DNA of 60,053 nt from a phage, in assembly GCA_012409925.1 (NCBI GenBank), contig GCA_012409925.1_4804.1. One strand, 5' to 3'. The notes beneath the pieces were generated by a model. It was not told where the DNA came from, did no database searches, and saw only the letters and a program-made list of their open reading frames with translations. Positions within the stretch are counted from its first letter, which is position 1. The number at the start of each line of letters is the position of its first letter. Made by a program: the position numbers and the translations under genes. This document shows, piece after piece, positions 41,423 through 53,523 of this stretch.

Positions 41423-42070
41423 TTATCCTGTGGCCTGCATATTGCGTACATACTTCTGCTCTAATGAATAGATGAAGTCGGCGACCGTCAATCCTTTGGT
41501 GTGCCATTCATACATGGTGAAGCCTGTATTCAGGAAATAGCCGCGCACCTTGTCCATCGCTTCAGCTTCCTCCATTGAAGCCATCAGCGCGGCGACGTTG
41601 TCATAAGAAGGCACAAATCCCTTCTTGCGTAGCGCATTGCGCAAATCTTTAGTTCTGAAGCCAATCTTGCAAGGGTCATCGCGACCCGTGGATGATGCAA
41701 CCTTCGGTAGCGCAAGGAACTCTTTAAGGAACATGGCAATGTTCAAGTCGCCTGCATCATCAAGCTTTTGGATTCGGTTGCGACCGCGACCCTTGAATTC
41801 ACTCGCACGAGGGTGAGCGCCAAAACAGTGCGCCCCTTCCAGCTTAGGGTCAATGATCATCACATCTTTCCCGATGCGCAGCTCTACGTAGTAAAGATAA
41901 GACTCATCGACAAGCTTTGTACGCTTGCAAGTGATTGAGTCCTTATCATAACCAAAGCCACGCAACACGGTTGAGATCATTCGGTTCATTTCTTCGCCGT
42001 GAACGTCACTTTCTTTGTTCAGTTCACCAAGATGTTGAAAGAATTTAGCGATGTTGATTGCTTTATTCAT
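41423..42070 (-). CDS. hypothetical protein, 215 aa
   Basis: ORF track; immediately downstream of helicase gene. Confidence 0.45.
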   Translation of the reverse strand: MNKAINIAKFFQHLGELNKESDVHGEEMNRMISTVLRGFGYDKDSITCKRTKLVDESYLYYVELRIGKDVMIIDPKLEGAHCFGAHPRASEFKGRGRNRIQKLDDAGDLNIAMFLKEFLALPKVASSTGRDDPCKIGFRTKDLRNALRKKGFVPSYDNVAALMASMEEAEAMDKVRGYFLNTGFTMYEWHTKGLTVADFIYSLEQKYVRNMQATG

Positions 42071-43740
42071 CAGAATTCATCCTTATCTCTTCCCAAAGAA
42101 CGTTTACGCTCAATAACCTTCTTCAAGAATTCAATATCTTCAGGGTCAGACTCATCGCGGATAAGATACGCTAAGATGGTCATCAAATCAGAAATGTATT
42201 CTCCTGCTTCATTCTTAATCAGCGGCGTAAAGTACCCGCGCTGGTTGCGATAGGTTGCAGGCTCAAAACCAAGCTTCGACATGTGCGGCGCAAGGGTACG
42301 AGAGAAAGGCGACTTGCCACACTTCGCTCTGAATCCCATAGCAATAGCACCACTGGTGATGTGCCAGCGTCCGCTGTGATGTCGGTCATAAGGCGCGGTG
42401 ATGACGACTTCAACAAGGTCGTTGTCCACCATCTCATCACGGATAACGCCGCGCGCACGTTCCATTTCGTTTTTACTGAACTCAGTAAGCATTCGAGATG
42501 TTTCACCAACAAACGCGTTATAGCCTGCTTCGCCGTTCTTCTCCATCCACGCAGCGCACTCAGCCATAAGCTGCCAAACGTCTTCTTTCAAAGTGGAAAG
42601 GTCGGCTTGGAAGTCCTTAGACCAGTTCGGTTGCCCGTCCTTGTCAGCGAGTTGGCCAACAAAGATAGGGTACACACGACGGTTGCCCGTGTCGTCACGC
42701 TGCATGCCTGCGTATTCGTTGCCGTCCATGATCGCAATCCACTGGCGTGGTTTAACCTGCGTATCTTCAAATTTGAAGTCCAGGTCATCTTCCGTCTTAG
42801 TCAGGAATGCTTTCATGTTTTCGATGTCGGCCTTTTTAAAGCCTGTCATCTCGCCGACGTTCGCGATAATTGAGCGACCCGTAATAGCTCGCAAGAACGG
42901 GTTGAAGTTTTGCGCGGCTAAGTTCAACGGAATCGGTGTTGCGTGGCGGTCGTTCATAATAGCTTCGCAAAGCAGCTTGCTAAAATAACTCTTCCCTGCG
43001 TTCTGGCCGCCGATGAGCGCGATGGAGATTGGCGCTTGACAGCCAGGGTTGGTCAGGCGGTTGTAGAGCGATAGCCAAAAATACACACCGATTTGTCGGT
43101 TTAACTCTGTATCGAACGGTCGGAATAGCTCGATAAGGTATTTCTCGATGCGCGCAGTACCGTCCCATTCAGGCAGCTTCTTGTAGAAGAAGTCCATCAG
43201 GTCGTCGCGCTGATAACGCATGGCCCATTCCTTATAGGATTGAGCGACCTGACGTGAGTTTGGGTTGGACAACCCTGCTGCGTCGACAGCAGCGACTATC
43301 TCTGTGACTTCCAAGGTACGGTCAGTGAATGTTTCGCCGCGATGGTCGACTAAGCGCCCACGAAAAGTATCTTTGTGAGGGAATGGAACAATGCCACTTC
43401 CCTTATCAAACAACGCGTCGAAAACCGCATAACGGTTCATGTCACTCGTCCGGTCTGCCTGTAGAACGAAGTCATCTTTGGTAGGCTTGTAGTGAGGGAA
43501 CTTGATTACCTGAAGTGAGGCGAGCAAGCGTGCTCTTTCAACCAAGTCTTCTTCACCGTAGCATTCCATGCGCTCTGAATCTTTTTCAACAGCTTTGTGT
43601 TGAAGGCTGATTTTAGCTCTGGTGCCTTGCTGCTCTGCTGCCTGCATTTCTTCCGAAACACCTGCATCTTGAATTTCGTCAAAGATTGCACCAAATTCAT
43701 CACCTGTATCCTCTGGAAGATTGTCATTATTAATTGACAT
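42070..43740 (-). CDS. VirE/D5-like replicative NTPase (helicase-primase-associated)
   Basis: 556 aa; P-loop ...IALIGGQNAGKSYF...; conserved LPEWDGTARIEKYL segment; AGGAGG RBS. Confidence 0.6.
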   Translation of the reverse strand: MSINNDNLPEDTGDEFGAIFDEIQDAGVSEEMQAAEQQGTRAKISLQHKAVEKDSERMECYGEEDLVERARLLASLQVIKFPHYKPTKDDFVLQADRTSDMNRYAVFDALFDKGSGIVPFPHKDTFRGRLVDHRGETFTDRTLEVTEIVAAVDAAGLSNPNSRQVAQSYKEWAMRYQRDDLMDFFYKKLPEWDGTARIEKYLIELFRPFDTELNRQIGVYFWLSLYNRLTNPGCQAPISIALIGGQNAGKSYFSKLLCEAIMNDRHATPIPLNLAAQNFNPFLRAITGRSIIANVGEMTGFKKADIENMKAFLTKTEDDLDFKFEDTQVKPRQWIAIMDGNEYAGMQRDDTGNRRVYPIFVGQLADKDGQPNWSKDFQADLSTLKEDVWQLMAECAAWMEKNGEAGYNAFVGETSRMLTEFSKNEMERARGVIRDEMVDNDLVEVVITAPYDRHHSGRWHITSGAIAMGFRAKCGKSPFSRTLAPHMSKLGFEPATYRNQRGYFTPLIKNEAGEYISDLMTILAYLIRDESDPEDIEFLKKVIERKRSLGRDKDEF

Positions 43741-45049: not shown

Positions 45050-46132
45050 CTATTTTATGCCACCTGCACGACGATTTATCATGTCAAGTTGATTCTCAAT
45101 ATAAGGCATGACGATTGCTTCAACAAAAGCAGTCCAACCTTTCTTGCCTTCCCCTTTCCGGTGGCAGTCGTGGGCGCAACCGAACACAAATTCATGTTCT
45201 GCACCAGGGATAGGGCCGCGAAAGTACGCGCCATACGGGTCGCCGTTGGTGTGCTCTTCACCCCAAGGGCAGATTATGCGGCACTTGCCTGACATATTCT
45301 CGATGACGTCGCCATCAGACCCTTCACCCATCTTGTTGCGCGCTAGAATCTGCTGGGCTATTTTATACCAAACAGCATCGTACTTGTATTCATCTACGTC
45401 AATTTGAATCTCACGCTTTTGCGGCATAACGACGTGAAAGCCGAATGCCTGACAGATGTCTTCGATGGTGTAGCGCAAGGAGTAGTCTGCATGGACAAGT
45501 CGGCAGCGGAACGGGTCGCCGTTCTCATCGACATATTTATAGGGGCCGTCGTGAGTCACACGCTTGTTGTTGATGCACCCAGGAACACGGCCCACGCGCG
45601 TTACGTCTTTAATCGTGTTGTCGCCGCCCTTCTTGAGTACCATGTTAACGAAAGACCCAAGGAACGCTTTGAACTGAATAAGATGGTCAATCGGTTCTTT
45701 AAAGAAGTACCAAAGCTGGTGGTTGTTCGGTGAAGTCTCGACGATGACAGTCGGCTTCAGTCGCTCGAAAAAGAATTCCAAATCTAAATCGCCTTTGGAC
45801 CCTTTACCGTGACCGATGTCGTCGACCATCATCGCCATACCGTGACCAAAGGCCGACTCTGTACGCCAGTATCGCATCTCACCCGTCTTTGGGTTGGGAG
45901 ACTTACGCATTGAACTGATGCACGCATAGCCGTTTTGGTGCTGCATGAGCGGCTTGCCCAACTTCCAAGGCTTAGGCCAGAAGCTGCTGTTAATCTTCTT
46001 GCCGCGCTCGTCAGTCTGCACCGTTGCTTCAGGAGCAAACACCGTCATGACGCGCTCATCTTCTGGGATGCCTCTTTGGAGTTCTGTTAAAAACTCTTCA
46101 ATTATTTTTGCTTCTTCTCTTAAACTAGCCAT
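45050..46132 (-). CDS. DNA primase-polymerase (PrimPol-like) with C-terminal zinc-binding primase domain
   Basis: 360 aa; ...MAMMVDDIGHG... and ...ETSPNNHQLWYFF... motifs; C-terminal CPWGEEH...CAHDCH Cys/His cluster. Confidence 0.55.
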   Translation of the reverse strand: MASLREEAKIIEEFLTELQRGIPEDERVMTVFAPEATVQTDERGKKINSSFWPKPWKLGKPLMQHQNGYACISSMRKSPNPKTGEMRYWRTESAFGHGMAMMVDDIGHGKGSKGDLDLEFFFERLKPTVIVETSPNNHQLWYFFKEPIDHLIQFKAFLGSFVNMVLKKGGDNTIKDVTRVGRVPGCINNKRVTHDGPYKYVDENGDPFRCRLVHADYSLRYTIEDICQAFGFHVVMPQKREIQIDVDEYKYDAVWYKIAQQILARNKMGEGSDGDVIENMSGKCRIICPWGEEHTNGDPYGAYFRGPIPGAEHEFVFGCAHDCHRKGEGKKGWTAFVEAIVMPYIENQLDMINRRAGGIK

Positions 46133-47803: not shown

Positions 47804-47961
47804 TGTTGACGTAAATTTACGAAAAATAAAACTGAAAATCAGTTTAATTAAAGTGGCATTGCCGCCATAGTTTTTAGTTGCTACTGGCGGCGACTGAAGG
47901 CATAATTAAGTTATCCCAAACGGGGAATATAAATAAACTAATTTATTTAAGGACTGTGAAT

Positions 47962-48801
47962 ATGGCCGAAGCAATCAAAGTATTATCTAAAGAAGAAAAA
48001 CAAGCAGCTGCAGCAGAACGTCGTCGCGTGGCTGAAGAAAAACGTCTGGCTAAAAAGAAAGAAGCCGAAGAGAAGCGCCAGAAGCGCGAGCAGGAAAAAC
48101 AAGCCAAGCGTGAAGAAGCTGCGCTGAAGCGCAAACAGGCTGCTGATGAGAAGGCTCAGAAGCGTGCTGAAGAAGCAGCGAAGAAAGCCAAAGAGCGTGC
48201 TGAAAAGGCTGCTGCTAAGAAGGCAGAGCGTGAAGCCGCTAAAGCAGCGAAAGAAATTGAAAAGGCTAAAGCTAAAGAAGAAGCCAAGCGTCTGAAAGCA
48301 GAGCAGGCTGCTGCCAAGAAAGCAGAGCGTGATCAAGCCCGTGCTGCAGCGAAGGCCGAAAAAGAGAAGGCCAAAGAAGAAGCTAAAGCGAAACGCAAAG
48401 CAGAGCGTGAAGCTGCTAAGATTGCGGCGAAAGAAGCTGCGGAAAAGCAGAAAGAACAGCGTAAGAAAGAAGCTGAAGAACGTCGCAAAGCCATCGCAGA
48501 GCGCAAGGCTGCTAAAAAGGCAAACGGTCAGCGTCGTGCAAAAGCCACTCACTTCATCTACACTGGCAATGGCCTGAGCCAGCCGCAAGAGCATTCCACC
48601 CGTGGACGCGTTCTGGCGGCGATCAAAGAAGGCGAAGTTGGCGTGGCGCAGTCTATCGATGAGCTGGGAGAGAAAGTTAAAGATCAACTGTTTGGCGCTT
48701 CCGTTCGCTCCTACCTGAGCAAGCTGGAAGAGATGGGCCACATCGAGTTTGTCGATGTTGAATCCAACGACGATGCCGAAGACGGTGATCAAGCGGAATA
48801 A
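47962..48801 (+). CDS. K/A/E/R-rich low-complexity protein with globular C-terminal ~90 aa
   Basis: ATG 47962 (AAGGA RBS) in track ORF 47878..48801; ~200 aa of EEKRLAKKKEAEEKRQKRE-type repeats; acidic C-terminal tail. Confidence 0.55.
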   Translation: MAEAIKVLSKEEKQAAAAERRRVAEEKRLAKKKEAEEKRQKREQEKQAKREEAALKRKQAADEKAQKRAEEAAKKAKERAEKAAAKKAEREAAKAAKEIEKAKAKEEAKRLKAEQAAAKKAERDQARAAAKAEKEKAKEEAKAKRKAEREAAKIAAKEAAEKQKEQRKKEAEERRKAIAERKAAKKANGQRRAKATHFIYTGNGLSQPQEHSTRGRVLAAIKEGEVGVAQSIDELGEKVKDQLFGASVRSYLSKLEEMGHIEFVDVESNDDAEDGDQAE

Positions 48802-48829: not shown

Positions 48830-48858
48830 GACCCACACTTGTTGTGGGTCTTTTTTCG
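48830..48858 (+). terminator. rho-independent terminator
   Basis: GACCCACA-cttgt-TGTGGGTC followed by TTTTTTCG. Confidence 0.65.
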
Positions 48859-48935: not shown

Positions 48936-49931
48936 ATGAACATGAAACAACCTGTAATGATTATCGGCGGCGGTTTGGCAGGACTTATCACGGCTTGTCA
49001 CTTTCCGAACTCTATTGTGTACGAAGCAGGCGAACGCGTCGCGCAGCACAAGGCGCTGCTACGATTTCGCGGCGAAGAAGTAAGCCGTATTACCGGAATC
49101 CCCTTTAAGGCCGTGACAGTCGATAAGGCTGTGTATTTTCGTGGCAACTACTATCACGACCACTGCCCGATTAACCTTGCCAACATGTACTCTATGAAAG
49201 TCACCAACCAGTTTGGCAGCCGCTCAATCATGAAGCTTCAAACTGCTACGCGCTACATAGCGCCGGATGACTTTTATGATCAACTTGTCGATAAACTGGG
49301 TGACCGTATATTCTTTAATACTCCGGTCGACACGCTTTGCGGCTATAGCGAGACGCCAATCATCAACACATCGCCGCTGCCAGTCATGATGAAGCTTGCT
49401 GGTATTGATCAAAAGCTCGACTTCTCGTTTGATAAGGCAAATATTCGCGTTTATCGTTTTAAGATTAAGCGCAAGTGTGAACTTTATCAAACAATTTACT
49501 TCCCTGACTATTCTGTAAGGACTTACCGCGCATCAATCACTGGTGACACGCTGATCATTGAAACAATTCCATTGGTAAGCGTCAGCGCGGCAGCAGTTGA
49601 AGCCGCTGGCGGCATTACCCGTTATCGCGACATGAAGCTGCGTGCAGAAGTGGATGAAGTTCTTACCGCTTTTGGTCTTTCATGGAATGACATCTCTTTG
49701 GAAGAAGTTGAAAAGGTTGACCAGAAGTATGGCAAAATTGTCGACATTCCGAAAGACTTGCGCCACGCCTTACTGCTCCAGTTGACTATGGATTTGAACG
49801 TATTTAGTGTCGGTCGATTCGCTACTTGGCGAAACATTTTGCTTGATGACGTCGCTCATGACCTTGCTGAAGTTGAAAAACTCATCAAAGCAAATAACTA
49901 TCAAAAATTTGCTTATATTGCTAATAAATAA
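48936..49931 (+). CDS. FAD/NAD(P)-binding Rossmann-fold oxidoreductase, 331 aa
   Basis: N-terminal dinucleotide-binding fingerprint MKQPVMIIGGGLAGL; family not resolved. Confidence 0.5.
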   Translation: MNMKQPVMIIGGGLAGLITACHFPNSIVYEAGERVAQHKALLRFRGEEVSRITGIPFKAVTVDKAVYFRGNYYHDHCPINLANMYSMKVTNQFGSRSIMKLQTATRYIAPDDFYDQLVDKLGDRIFFNTPVDTLCGYSETPIINTSPLPVMMKLAGIDQKLDFSFDKANIRVYRFKIKRKCELYQTIYFPDYSVRTYRASITGDTLIIETIPLVSVSAAAVEAAGGITRYRDMKLRAEVDEVLTAFGLSWNDISLEEVEKVDQKYGKIVDIPKDLRHALLLQLTMDLNVFSVGRFATWRNILLDDVAHDLAEVEKLIKANNYQKFAYIANK

Positions 49932-49996: not shown

Positions 49997-50443
49997 ATGA
50001 AACGCATCACTGGAATCGCGCTTGCCGCGACTGCTATTCTCGGAACCATGTATATGGAAGCGACTGAAGCCGCTGTCCGTACTTCCGATTCAATCGCTGT
50101 TTACGATTGCGAAGCGATGGACGGCAAGACCGCAGCGACGACTGGCGCAACAATTACCACTTACATCGGTGTGAACGAGCAAGAAGGTCTGAATATTCAG
50201 ATTCAGGGATTCACCGGAAAAGGTGCCAACCGGACTCCGTGGATGCAGCGTTTCACTTTCGTTCAGCCTCGTTCAACTGGCGGCTTTATTAACCTGATTG
50301 GGGAAAACCGTTCTGGTGCAGAAATCTTTACATCAATGAGTTCTAATAATGAACCAAAGAAAAGTTTTCAGTTGCTTTATAACGCACAATTCGTTTATCA
50401 TTGCACCTTCTCTGGTGATCAGCAACTAGTGAATTACCGTTAA
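49997..50443 (+). CDS. secreted/periplasmic protein, 148 aa
   Basis: N-terminal signal-peptide-like MKRITGIALAATAILGTMYMEA; two Cys in mature part. Confidence 0.45.
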   Translation: MKRITGIALAATAILGTMYMEATEAAVRTSDSIAVYDCEAMDGKTAATTGATITTYIGVNEQEGLNIQIQGFTGKGANRTPWMQRFTFVQPRSTGGFINLIGENRSGAEIFTSMSSNNEPKKSFQLLYNAQFVYHCTFSGDQQLVNYR

Positions 50444-52971: not shown

Positions 52972-53523
52972 ATGCCACATTTTAAAATTGAACAAATCGC
53001 CCTGTCAATTCCAGGTGCTCAGCGCGCACAGAATTTCCTGGCTAAAATCGGCCTGACAGAATGGTTCCATGATCACGTTGTTGCTACTGGTCGCGTATTT
53101 GAAGCTGATGTCTTTAAGGGTCAGCGCGGCGATTGCACCAACGAAGCTGACTTGCGCTTCAACTATCAGGCTGGCAACGGCACCGATGGCGGCGCTGGTA
53201 AGCCTCTTGAGCTTGAAATTCTTGACTATACAAAAGGTTGCAACTGGATTCACGAAAACATCGAATACATCGATGCGCACGACAATCAGGTTAGCCATCT
53301 TGGTATGCACGTGACTGCCGCTGAACTTGCTGAATGGCGCAAGTTCTTTAAAGAAGAAGGCATTCAGGTTGCGCAGGAAGTTGTGACCGACTCTCACACC
53401 AACCCAAACATTGCTGGTCAGCGTCGTTACAACTATGTGATCTTTGATACGCGTGAAATCATTGGTGTCGACCTTAAGTTCATCGTGCGGTTGAATCAAG
53501 ACGGTACTCCGTACACTGTATAA
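52972..53523 (+). CDS. hypothetical protein, 183 aa (VOC/glyoxalase-like candidate)
   Basis: ORF track; weak resemblance to vicinal-oxygen-chelate fold (HxGxxV, conserved Glu); low confidence. Confidence 0.3.
   Translation: MPHFKIEQIALSIPGAQRAQNFLAKIGLTEWFHDHVVATGRVFEADVFKGQRGDCTNEADLRFNYQAGNGTDGGAGKPLELEILDYTKGCNWIHENIEYIDAHDNQVSHLGMHVTAAELAEWRKFFKEEGIQVAQEVVTDSHTNPNIAGQRRYNYVIFDTREIIGVDLKFIVRLNQDGTPYTV

What the first reader, a model, noticed from the sequence alone, without database searches (positions are those of the whole stretch)
47962..48801. Highly charged K/A/E/R repeat protein
About 200 residues of near-pure Lys/Ala/Glu/Arg coiled-coil-like repeats (DNA shows AAAGCAGAGCGTGA three times) followed by a ~90-aa globular acidic domain, encoded between the Dda-like helicase and a strong terminator. 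Composition resembles histone H1/TolA-like linkers; possible nucleoid-associated or DNA-coating protein, or a spacer/ruler protein.
Basis: inference. Interest (0 to 1): 0.45.

Follow-up and report, generated by a model that had tools for sequence, protein, structure and literature searches.

The report
Charge-striped helix plus winged-helix phage protein
This is a real, expressed gene found in all PB1-like phages (Lindbergviridae): it encodes a roughly 26-nm charged helix ending in a small winged-helix domain and an acidic tail, it probably binds DNA, its function has never been tested, and the "TolA" label it carries in databases is wrong.

Summary
Window 47962-48801 (+) encodes a 279-aa protein. 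Residues 1-190 are 86% Ala/Lys/Glu/Arg with net charge +26. The C-terminal 89 residues have net charge -8.

The window is a Wifcevirus, a PB1-like E. coli myovirus. The gene is a single-gene unit with a sigma70-like promoter and an intrinsic terminator. It sits in the replication module after the Dda-like helicase in seven phage groups.

The family is small: 36 clusters among 1.84 billion representatives, with no Pfam, NCBIfam or PDB sequence match. Short homologues of 136-149 aa keep only a very basic arm plus the winged helix (net +11 to +16).

Published mass spectrometry found the orthologue in CsCl-purified virions of two wifceviruses, at very different levels.

My best reading is an abundant DNA-binding accessory protein that may be co-packaged (confidence about 0.4). 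TolA and histone H1 membership are not supported. Interest is moderate.

The parts
47853..47865 (+). Small terminator-like hairpin (GTGGCATTGCCGC, then a T-rich run) just after the helicase gene. It separates the helicase transcript from this gene.
   Evidence: Consensus scan. Weak: 5-bp stem. Inferred only.
47878..47906 (+). Sigma70-like promoter: TTGCTA, 17-nt spacer, CATAAT.
   Evidence: Consensus scan gives 9 of 12 matches. A similar TTGCnn-N17-nATAAT/TATAGT element lies at the same relative position upstream of five of the six other orthologues read; none was seen upstream of FoX7. The 158-nt intergenic region differs at only 2 positions from Bas100, against 30 differences in the 840-nt gene. 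Promoter activity has not been tested.
47950..47953 (+). Shine-Dalgarno AGGA, 8 nt before the ATG.
   Evidence: Read directly from the sequence.
47962..48801 (+). Coding sequence, 279 aa plus stop codon. Member of PHROG 4765 (unknown function).
   Evidence: E 5.8e-84. All 29 Wifcevirus records carry it at 93-97% nt identity and all are 840 nt long. MS peptides match its product.
47989..48519 (+). Residues 10-186: one continuous alpha-helix of 177 residues, about 26 nm at 0.15 nm per residue. It is K/A/E/R-rich, with basic and acidic residues on opposite faces.
   Evidence: AF2 pLDDT is about 79-96 over this span, 90 or more from residue 21 to 170. The charge power spectrum peaks at 3.65 residues, and 0 of 500 shuffles reach that peak. 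The K/R and E/D phases differ by about 180 degrees, and apolar periodicity is not significant. The same pattern appears in 21 of 24 homologues. Against Bas100 this segment has 24 nt differences but only 1 aa change.
48532..48552 (+). Residues 191-197, RRAKATH: the conserved basic arm leading into strand 1.
   Evidence: R191 and R192 are conserved in at least 90% of 34 family sequences.
48550..48753 (+). Residues 197-264: winged-helix-like domain with the order strand, H1, strand, H2, H3, strand. It carries the family signature S-x-R-G-[KR]-V ... L-Y-G-x-S-V-R-S-Y-L-S-K-L-E-E-M-G-H.
48754..48798 (+). Residues 265-279: disordered acidic tail (VESNDDAEDGDQAE, net -8).
   Evidence: pLDDT is below 50. 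The tails vary in length and sequence and most are acidic in the long homologues, reaching -16 in Pbunavirus; they are absent in the short homologues. The C-terminal peptide was seen by MS, so the tail is retained.
48830..48856 (+). Intrinsic terminator: GACCCACA-cttgt-TGTGGGTC followed by TTTTTT.
   Evidence: A GC-rich hairpin plus T-run follows the orthologue in all 7 phage groups read. It is annotated as a terminator in the MTx, LBL3 and KT28 records.

Best explanation
The gene encodes an abundantly made nucleic-acid-binding accessory protein, most likely DNA-binding, that belongs to the replication and nucleotide-metabolism module of PB1-like phages (Lindbergviridae).

**Shown here.**
- It is a self-contained transcription unit.
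- It is conserved in position across the family.
- The protein is expressed.
- It consists of a roughly 26-nm single helix with a basic stripe on one face and an acidic stripe on the other, then a basic arm (RRxKATH), a small winged-helix-like domain with conserved Arg and Lys, and a disordered acidic tail.

**Inferred.**
- The ancestral working part is the basic arm plus winged helix, which is all the short homologues have. It binds DNA without strong sequence preference.
- In Lindbergviridae the arm has grown into a long bipolar helix. Its basic face can lie along or bridge DNA.
- The acidic face and acidic tail either temper DNA binding, as acidic tails do in HMGB1, T4 gp32 and T7 gp2.5, or let molecules pack side by side through complementary charge.
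- The protein therefore coats or organises replicating phage DNA. Because it rides on the DNA, a variable fraction is packaged with virions or co-purifies with them.
For: **Gene position and transcription.**
- The gene lies in the replication module after the Dda-like helicase in Wifcevirus, Pbunavirus, Kylevirus, Myosmarvirus, Tabernariusvirus, Carpasinavirus and an Aeromonas phage.
- The same holds in three metagenomic phage contigs of about 72-74 kb.
- Every one of the seven sequenced orthologue loci has an intrinsic terminator downstream, and six of the seven show a sigma70-like promoter upstream.

**Structure.**
- The AF2 architecture is described.

**Charge and conservation.**
- Conserved R191, R192, R214, R249 and K254 are among the 11 best-conserved positions.
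- The short homologues have net charge +11 to +16, with a basic arm of +9 to +14 and a basic winged helix.
- The long arm is net basic in nearly all members, from -2 to +26, positive in 22 of 24.
- The bipolar charge periodicity is significant in 21 of 24 members.
- The helix sequence is under strong purifying selection: 24 nt changes but only 1 aa change.

**Expression and context.**
- MS of CsCl-purified vB_Eco4M-7 gave 422 spectra for the orthologue, more than the major capsid protein (333) and comparable to the portal (559).
- No SSB or other DNA-binding accessory protein is annotated in a complete relative.
Against: - No experiment shows nucleic-acid binding.
- The winged-helix core of the window protein has net charge 0, and the whole Pbunavirus protein is net -6.
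- Foldseek gives no significant PDB match, and the domain-only model has mean pLDDT of only 75.
- Module membership is guilt by association.
- The promoter is a consensus match only.
Confidence: 0.4

Rival explanations
1. It is a dedicated internal virion protein. It is packaged in many copies with the genome inside the head and injected with the DNA. A 1-nm-thick helix plus an 8-kDa domain could pass through the tail channel without unfolding. Once inside, it would protect or prime the incoming genome.
For: - In CsCl-purified vB_Eco4M-7 the orthologue gave 422 spectra and score 1198, above the portal's score (1112), from only about 5 detectable peptides. It was also detected in ECML-117.
- It was absent from the 31 proteins found in LiCl/DNase 'ghost' particles of Pbunavirus SCUT-S1. 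That is what one expects of a protein that leaves with the DNA.
- Pbunavirus cryo-EM work did not name it among the modelled proteins in the text read, which is compatible with a disordered internal location.
- Unassigned helical density exists under the Pa193 hexons.
Against: - The gene lies in the replication module behind a sigma70-like promoter, not among the late structural genes.
- The amount differs about 100-fold relative to the portal between the two wifceviruses: score 1198 against 1112 in Eco4M-7, but 3.2 against 318 in ECML-117. That argues against a fixed stoichiometric component.
- The same preparations contained clearly non-structural proteins (helicase, glyoxalase-family protein, FabG-like reductase), so carry-over of abundant proteins is real.
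That looks like a similarity-based guess.
Confidence: 0.2
2. It is a protein-protein adaptor or spacer of the replication machinery. The winged helix and acidic tail dock onto a partner such as the helicase, the polymerase, the neighbouring 331-aa protein or a host factor. The rigid helix holds that partner at a set distance.
For: - Acidic tails recruit partners in T4 gp32, T7 gp2.5 and bacterial SSB (established knowledge).
- The gene is adjacent to the Dda-like helicase, and even more constantly to the 315-333-aa downstream gene.
- Helix length is near-constant across the named genera, with crude segment lengths of 176-191 residues, and the helix shows almost no amino-acid change within a genus.
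Against: - The short homologues lack both the long helix and the acidic tail, yet keep the genomic position and are extremely basic. That points to nucleic acid rather than a protein partner.
- No partner has been identified.
- The helicase adjacency is lost in the metagenomic relatives looked up, where 2-5 small genes intervene.
Confidence: 0.2
3. It is a length-determining ruler or other structural element of the virion, such as a tape measure, cement or scaffold.
For: - The helix is long, rigid and of constant length within genera. There is no length variation in 29 Wifcevirus records.
- The protein was detected in virion preparations.
Against: - The tape measure, scaffold-like and decoration proteins of these phages are already assigned to other genes by cryo-EM of Pbunavirus.
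- 26 nm matches no virion dimension reported in the papers read. The only tail length read here is 124 nm, for KPP12.
- The arm varies from about 55 to about 190 residues across homologues in phages of similar genome size.
- The gene is not in the structural module.
Confidence: 0.05
4. It is a TolA homologue or cell-wall-associated protein acting in the envelope, as many database records say.
For: - The composition resembles TolA domain II.
- Records carry the annotations 'TolA protein' and 'putative cell wall associated hydrolase'.
Against: - There is no signal peptide or membrane segment: only 11 hydrophobic residues occur in the first 190.
- No TolA or hydrolase domain appears in Pfam or NCBIfam for this protein, and none in Pfam for 28 homologues.
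- The C-terminal domain is winged-helix-like.
Confidence: 0.02

Closest known systems
Linker histone H1/H5
   Same: It pairs a small winged-helix domain with a long Lys/Ala-rich charged extension, and it could plausibly coat or bridge DNA.
   Different: - There is no sequence match to the linker-histone family.
- The H1 globular domain appears only as a non-significant Foldseek hit (E 2.4).
- The extension is N-terminal and predicted to be a rigid helix rather than a disordered tail.
- The extension contains 21% acidic residues arranged as a separate stripe, and the protein ends in an acidic tail.
TolA (domain II) of the Tol-Pal system
   Same: It has a long helical segment rich in K, A and E, followed by a small C-terminal globular domain. 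This resemblance is the source of the database name.
   Different: - It has no N-terminal membrane anchor and no TolA C-terminal domain.
- It is a phage protein with no export signal.
- The resemblance is compositional only.
ER/K single alpha-helix (SAH) domains, e.g. myosin VI/X and caldesmon
   Same: The segment is highly charged, has no hydrophobic seam, and is predicted as one long uninterrupted helix usable as a rigid spacer.
   Different: - It is 30% Ala.
- The classic E(i) to K(i+4) pairing is not enriched (z -0.2).
- Instead, like charges line up with a 3.65-3.7-residue period, giving opposite basic and acidic faces.
DNA-binding proteins with acidic C-terminal tails (HMGB1, T4 gp32, T7 gp2.5, bacterial SSB)
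   Same: It combines a basic nucleic-acid-binding part with a disordered acidic tail that, in those proteins, tempers DNA binding and recruits partners. It is also abundant and encoded in the replication module.
   Different: - The fold is different: winged-helix-like rather than an OB fold or HMG box.
- The short homologues have no tail.
- Nothing here has been tested.
Winged-helix insert of MetAP2 / Ebp1 / Arx1
   Different: - Sequence identity is only 5-19% in the alignments, and the Foldseek E-values are not significant.
- It is an insert within an enzyme fold, not a free-standing domain.
- There is no evolutionary link.

Membership tests
TolA | N-terminal transmembrane anchor | tested here: not met
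   The N-terminus is MAEAIKVLSKEEKQ. Only 11 hydrophobic residues occur in residues 1-190 and they are never clustered.
TolA | C-terminal TolA domain III | tested here: not met
   There is no Pfam hit at E<=1 for the whole protein, at E<=10 for the C-terminal domain, or for 28 homologues. The fold is winged-helix-like.
TolA | Long helical K/A/E/D-rich central domain | tested here: met
   Composition and the AF2 helix over residues 10-186. This is a compositional resemblance only.
Linker histone H1/H5 | Globular domain belonging to the linker-histone winged-helix family | tested here: not met
Linker histone H1/H5 | Disordered, strongly basic Lys/Ala/Pro-rich C-terminal tail | tested here: not met
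   The charged part is N-terminal, predicted helical (pLDDT about 79-96, 90 or more over residues 21-170), 21% acidic and contains no Pro.
ER/K single alpha-helix (SAH) | Long, highly charged helix without an apolar seam | tested here: met
   The segment is 57% charged and 6% hydrophobic. The apolar periodicity peak is reached by 8% of shuffles. AF2 predicts one helix.
ER/K single alpha-helix (SAH) | Enrichment of E(i)-K/R(i+4) ion pairs | tested here: inconclusive
   E to K at i+4 gives z -0.2. K to E at i+4 gives z 3.1, and E to K at i+5 gives z 3.1. Charges segregate to opposite faces.
ER/K single alpha-helix (SAH) | Monomeric, stable helix in solution | not testable with these tools
   This needs CD, AUC or SAXS on purified protein.
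Winged-helix fold | Three-helix core with a small beta-sheet or wing | tested here: met
   The AF2 order is E197-200, H213-222, E229-231, H232-238, H248-257, E261-264. It is the same in the full-length and domain-only models.
Winged-helix fold | Structural similarity to solved winged-helix domains | tested here: met
Winged-helix fold | DNA binding through helix 3 and the wing | not testable with these tools
   R249 and K254 in helix 3, R214 at the start of helix 1 and R191/R192 before strand 1 are conserved. Binding itself is untested.
PHROG 4765 (unknown function) | Full-length profile match | tested here: met
   E 5.8e-84, residues 1-279 against profile positions 14-271 of 294.
Virion (structural or internal) protein | Reproducibly present in purified particles | tested here: inconclusive
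   From the literature: 422 spectra in CsCl-purified vB_Eco4M-7 but only 2 peptides in ECML-117. The homologue S1_069 was not detected in SCUT-S1 ghost particles. Non-structural proteins were present in the same preparations.
Virion (structural or internal) protein | Encoded and expressed with the late structural genes | tested here: not met
   The gene lies in the replication block, has its own sigma70-like promoter, and is far from the head and tail genes.

The most novel reading that the evidence does not exclude
The protein founds a new class of phage DNA-coating proteins. A winged-helix 'foot' anchors it on DNA. The 26-nm Janus-charged helices zip together side by side, basic face to acidic face, forming a proteinaceous sheath or scaffold on the phage genome. 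That sheath is partly packaged and injected, where it shields the incoming DNA from host nucleases or defence systems, or organises the very fast replication reported for wifceviruses.
Probability: 0.1. Interest if true: 0.65.

Novelty: new variant of a known kind. Interest (0 to 1): 0.35.

Why it matters
PB1-like phages include Pbunavirus, which, according to the BASEL paper, is among the Pseudomonas aeruginosa phage genera most used for personalised therapy. This gene was found in every Lindbergviridae genus examined, is highly expressed, and is mislabelled in databases as TolA, structural protein or cell-wall hydrolase. Correcting that label has practical value.

If the protein does bind and organise phage DNA, or travels with it into the cell, it would fill a gap: no DNA-binding accessory protein is annotated in these genomes. 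It would also add an unusual design, a long helix with opposite basic and acidic faces on a winged-helix foot, to the known ways viruses handle their DNA.

If it turns out to be a sticky abundant protein that merely co-purifies with virions, the finding is ordinary.

Tried and rejected
**Sequence searches that found no known family.**
- Pfam on the whole protein, on the C-terminal domain alone (E up to 10) and on 29 family members gave nothing. The only hits were weak low-complexity ones such as CAF1A_acidic, and RPA_C at E 0.44.
- NCBIfam gave nothing.
- PDB sequence searches with the single domain and with a 34-sequence profile gave nothing below E 0.3.
- The word-indexed protein search returned only 4-13 proteins per query, apparently missing most phage orthologues.
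- The exhaustive HMMER search of 1.84 billion representatives found only 36 clusters, all with the same architecture or the short form.

**Structure searches.**
- Foldseek against the viral library returned only family members at significant E-values.
- Foldseek against PDB was not significant.
- The afdb50 library was not available.

**Papers and supplements I could not read.**
- Ceyssens et al. 2009 on PB1-like phages is not held.
- No supplementary tables are held as text for Pa193 LC-MS, FoX6 MS or the 14-1 transcription units.

**Readings I rejected.**
- TolA or hydrolase: no anchor and no matching domain.
- Classical coiled coil: no apolar periodicity.
- Tandem DNA repeat array: TRF finds essentially none.
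- The longer TTG-initiated ORF and the antisense 269-aa ORF.
- The 'structural protein' label in Pbunavirus records as independent evidence: it traces to a similarity-style note in the LBL3 record.

Full report
**1. What is there**

The finding's coordinates are exact. An ORF runs from ATG 47962 to the stop codon ending at 48801 (279 aa), with AGGA 8 nt upstream.

Residues 1-190 are 30% Ala, 25% Lys, 20.5% Glu and 10.5% Arg, with net charge +26. Residues 191-279 have net charge -8.

That is 3 matches against 0.02 expected by chance. There is no real tandem repeat array, though: TRF reports only a 15-nt unit repeated twice, and the direct-repeat families are 60-86% identical.

The 269-aa ORF on the opposite strand (47983-48792) is a mirror artefact of the low-complexity sequence. 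The longer TTG start at 47878 would overlap the promoter.

**2. Where the window comes from**

The gene matches 29 phage records at 93-97% nucleotide identity, nearly all named Escherichia phages plus one Shigella phage and one record named Wifcevirus WFH. They include WFC, WFH, ECML-117, FEC19, vB_Eco4M-7 and BASEL Bas98-101. All copies are exactly 840 nt.

Wifcevirus belongs to the PB1-like family Lindbergviridae. Records call the gene 'hypothetical protein' or 'TolA protein'. It matches PHROG 4765, a family of unknown function, at E 5.8e-84. It has no Pfam or NCBIfam match.

**3. Family and context**

tblastn with the C-terminal 85 residues finds the domain in 357 phage records. These cover Pbunavirus (293 Pseudomonas records), Kylevirus, Myosmarvirus, Tabernariusvirus, Carpasinavirus, Burkholderia phages and an Aeromonas phage.

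In every genome inspected the order is: Dda-like helicase, this gene, a 315-333-aa protein, then ThyX, polynucleotide kinase and the polymerase genes. In a 71.7-kb metagenomic relative the helicase is five genes away, but the downstream neighbour is kept.

Each orthologue is followed by a GC-rich hairpin and a T-run. Six of the seven are preceded by a TTGCnn-N17-nATAAT-like element; none was seen upstream of FoX7. In the window the promoter-like element is at 47878-47906 and the terminator at 48830-48856.

The 158-nt upstream spacer differs from Bas100 at only 2 positions, while the gene has 30 differences in 840 nt. The gene is therefore a self-contained unit read by host-type RNA polymerase. 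This is inferred from sequence only.

An exhaustive HMMER search of 1.84 billion cluster representatives found only 36 clusters, so the family is small and apparently confined to phage-like contexts wherever a source could be seen.

**4. Structure**

With a 10-sequence alignment, AlphaFold2 predicts one uninterrupted helix from residue 10 to 186, with pLDDT about 79-96, 90 or more between residues 21 and 170. It then predicts strand 197-200, helix 213-222, strand 229-231, helix 232-238, helix 248-257 and strand 261-264, followed by a disordered tail. A domain-only model gives the same topology at mean pLDDT 75.

The domain is therefore winged-helix-like at fold level and forms its own sequence family.

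In a 34-sequence alignment the best-conserved positions are R191, R192, Q209, S212, R214, I232, G245, R249, L252, K254 and L255. Five of these eleven are Arg or Lys.

**5. The helix is not a coiled coil and not a textbook SAH**

Only 7 hydrophobic residues occur in 177, and apolar residues including Ala show no significant helical periodicity.

Charge, by contrast, has a sharp spectral peak at 3.65 residues that none of 500 shuffles reaches. K/R and D/E are about 180 degrees apart on the helical wheel. The helix thus carries a continuous basic stripe and an opposite acidic stripe over roughly 26 nm.

The same property is significant in 21 of 24 homologues, with periods of 3.65-3.70 and phase differences of 136-178 degrees. 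This holds even though these segments are hardly alignable.

The segment is not drifting low-complexity filler. Between the window and Bas100 it has 24 nucleotide differences but only one amino-acid change. Two Pbunavirus species differ less in the helix than in the winged helix.

**6. Short homologues point to the core function**

Phage contigs of about 73 kb with the same primase, helicase, kinase, exonuclease and DnaE-type polymerase module carry a 136-149-aa homologue at the same place.

These proteins consist of a roughly 55-residue, very basic arm (+9 to +14) and a basic winged helix (+2 to +5). They have no acidic tail, and their total charge is +11 to +16. Such charge is typical of nucleic-acid binders.

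In the long forms the arm remains net basic in all but two members, ranging from -2 to +26, and the window protein is the most basic. The winged-helix core is about neutral. An acidic tail of -8 in the window and -16 in Pbunavirus is appended; some other long forms have tails that are only weakly acidic.

The arm therefore varies from about 55 to about 190 residues across the family. That weakens a universal 'ruler' role. Within the named genera, however, its length is nearly constant, with crude segments of 176-191 residues and 151 in the Aeromonas phage.

**7. Expression and virions**

Necel et al. 2020 (PMC7048862) analysed CsCl-purified vB_Eco4M-7 and ECML-117 by LC-MS/MS. Their genes are 96.4% identical to the window gene.

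In vB_Eco4M-7, the 'TolA protein' gp83 gave 7 peptides, 25.8% coverage, 422 spectra and score 1198. For comparison, the portal gave 559 spectra and score 1112, the 41.7-kDa major capsid protein gave 333 spectra, and the 54.8-kDa gp48, which I take to be the tail sheath, gave 358. The confident peptides all come from the winged-helix domain and include the intact C-terminus. In ECML-117 only 2 peptides were found, with score 3.2 against 318 for the portal.

The same preparations contained a helicase, a glyoxalase-family protein and a FabG-like reductase, so abundant non-structural proteins carry over.

In Pbunavirus SCUT-S1, MS of LiCl/DNase 'ghost' particles detected 31 proteins, including the neighbouring helicase. 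It did not detect the homologue S1_069.

That suggests similarity-based naming.

Cryo-EM studies of E217 and Pa193 do not mention the homologue in the text I read. Pa193 does have unassigned helical density under its hexons.

Virion association is therefore real as an observation but not established as specific.

**8. Interpretation**

The best-supported reading (about 0.4) is an abundant DNA-binding accessory protein of the replication module. In this reading the basic arm and winged helix bind DNA, the long bipolar helix extends along or between DNA segments, and the acidic stripe and tail temper binding or mediate side-by-side association. Its variable presence in virion preparations would follow from riding on DNA.

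No SSB or other DNA-binding accessory protein is annotated in the complete genome of Bas100, so such a role is unfilled.

The rival readings are:
- a dedicated internal or injected virion protein (about 0.2);
- a protein-protein adaptor or spacer of the replisome (about 0.2);
- a structural ruler (about 0.05);
- a TolA-like envelope protein (about 0.02, since its defining features fail).

None of these has been tested experimentally. The steps from 'winged-helix-like, basic, replication module' to 'binds DNA' are inference.

**9. Comparison and novelty**

The protein resembles histone H1 in pairing a winged helix with a charged K/A-rich extension. It resembles TolA in composition, SAH domains in having a long charged helix without a seam, and gp32, gp2.5 and HMGB1 in having an acidic tail. 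It is a member of none of these families, as the membership table shows.

The gene itself is already catalogued (PHROG 4765, many GenBank entries), but its function is unknown and its common names are misleading.

I rate it a new variant of a known kind: a winged-helix protein with an unusual bipolar 26-nm helix. Interest is moderate at 0.35, and would be higher if the DNA-sheath or co-injection idea proved true.

Noticed in passing
window 48936-49931 (+): A 331-aa protein with an N-terminal dinucleotide-binding motif (MIIGGGLAGL) and no Pfam or NCBIfam match. Relatives call it 'UDP-galactopyranose mutase' or 'oxidoreductase'. It follows the K/A/E/R gene directly in six of the seven phage groups read (not in Tabernariusvirus). 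It does so even in a metagenomic relative where the helicase is five genes away. That makes it the gene's most constant neighbour in the genomes read.
   Followed up: partly
window 47983-48792 (-): A 269-aa antisense ORF, Phe/Leu/Ser-rich, that mirrors the low-complexity gene. It is almost certainly not a gene, and published MS peptides match the + strand product.
   Followed up: yes
window 49997-50443 (+): A 148-aa ORF with a signal-peptide-like N-terminus (MKRITGIALAATAILGT...) inside the replication block. It has no Pfam match.
   Followed up: no
homologues P0005, P0007-P0009, P0011, P0013, P0021, P0024, P0033 and phage tabernarius (L006 3167-4309): Many homologues begin with a His-rich leader (MSHGHHxH..., NHDHQHNHQHNH) before the charged helix, which could be a metal-binding site. 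The window protein has no such leader.
   Followed up: no
loci L014 5438-5887 and L015 8001-8414: Short homologues of 136-149 aa consist only of a very basic arm plus the winged helix (net +11 to +16). They sit at the equivalent place in the replication module of ~73-kb phage contigs. This suggests the long helix and acidic tail are later additions.
   Followed up: partly
relative Bas100, whole genome (L001, L016, L017): No single-strand-binding protein, recombinase or transcription regulator is annotated among its 111 features, and about two thirds are 'hypothetical protein'.
   Followed up: partly
window 47804-47961 compared with L001 8842-9000: The intergenic spacer upstream of the gene is far better conserved (2 differences in 158 nt) than synonymous sites in the gene (29 third-position differences in 840 nt). 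This implies regulatory constraint beyond the promoter hexamers.
   Followed up: partly
window 45050-46132 (-) and 42070-43740 (-): Two separate genes are annotated 'DNA primase' in relatives. In metagenomic relatives the equivalents match RepB_primase and VapE-like domains. They are transcribed divergently from the helicase block.
   Followed up: no
window 52972-53523 (+): This 183-aa protein has no Pfam match. By size and gene order it is probably the orthologue of the 'glyoxalase family protein' gp77, which was also abundant in the vB_Eco4M-7 virion preparation (score 718). It would be a second replication-block protein that co-purifies with particles.
   Followed up: no
literature: Pa193 cryo-EM paper (PMC11456595): Unassigned helical density, about 16 residues in each of three chains, lies under the capsid hexons of the Pbunavirus Pa193. 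The authors could not attribute it to any gene product.
   Followed up: no
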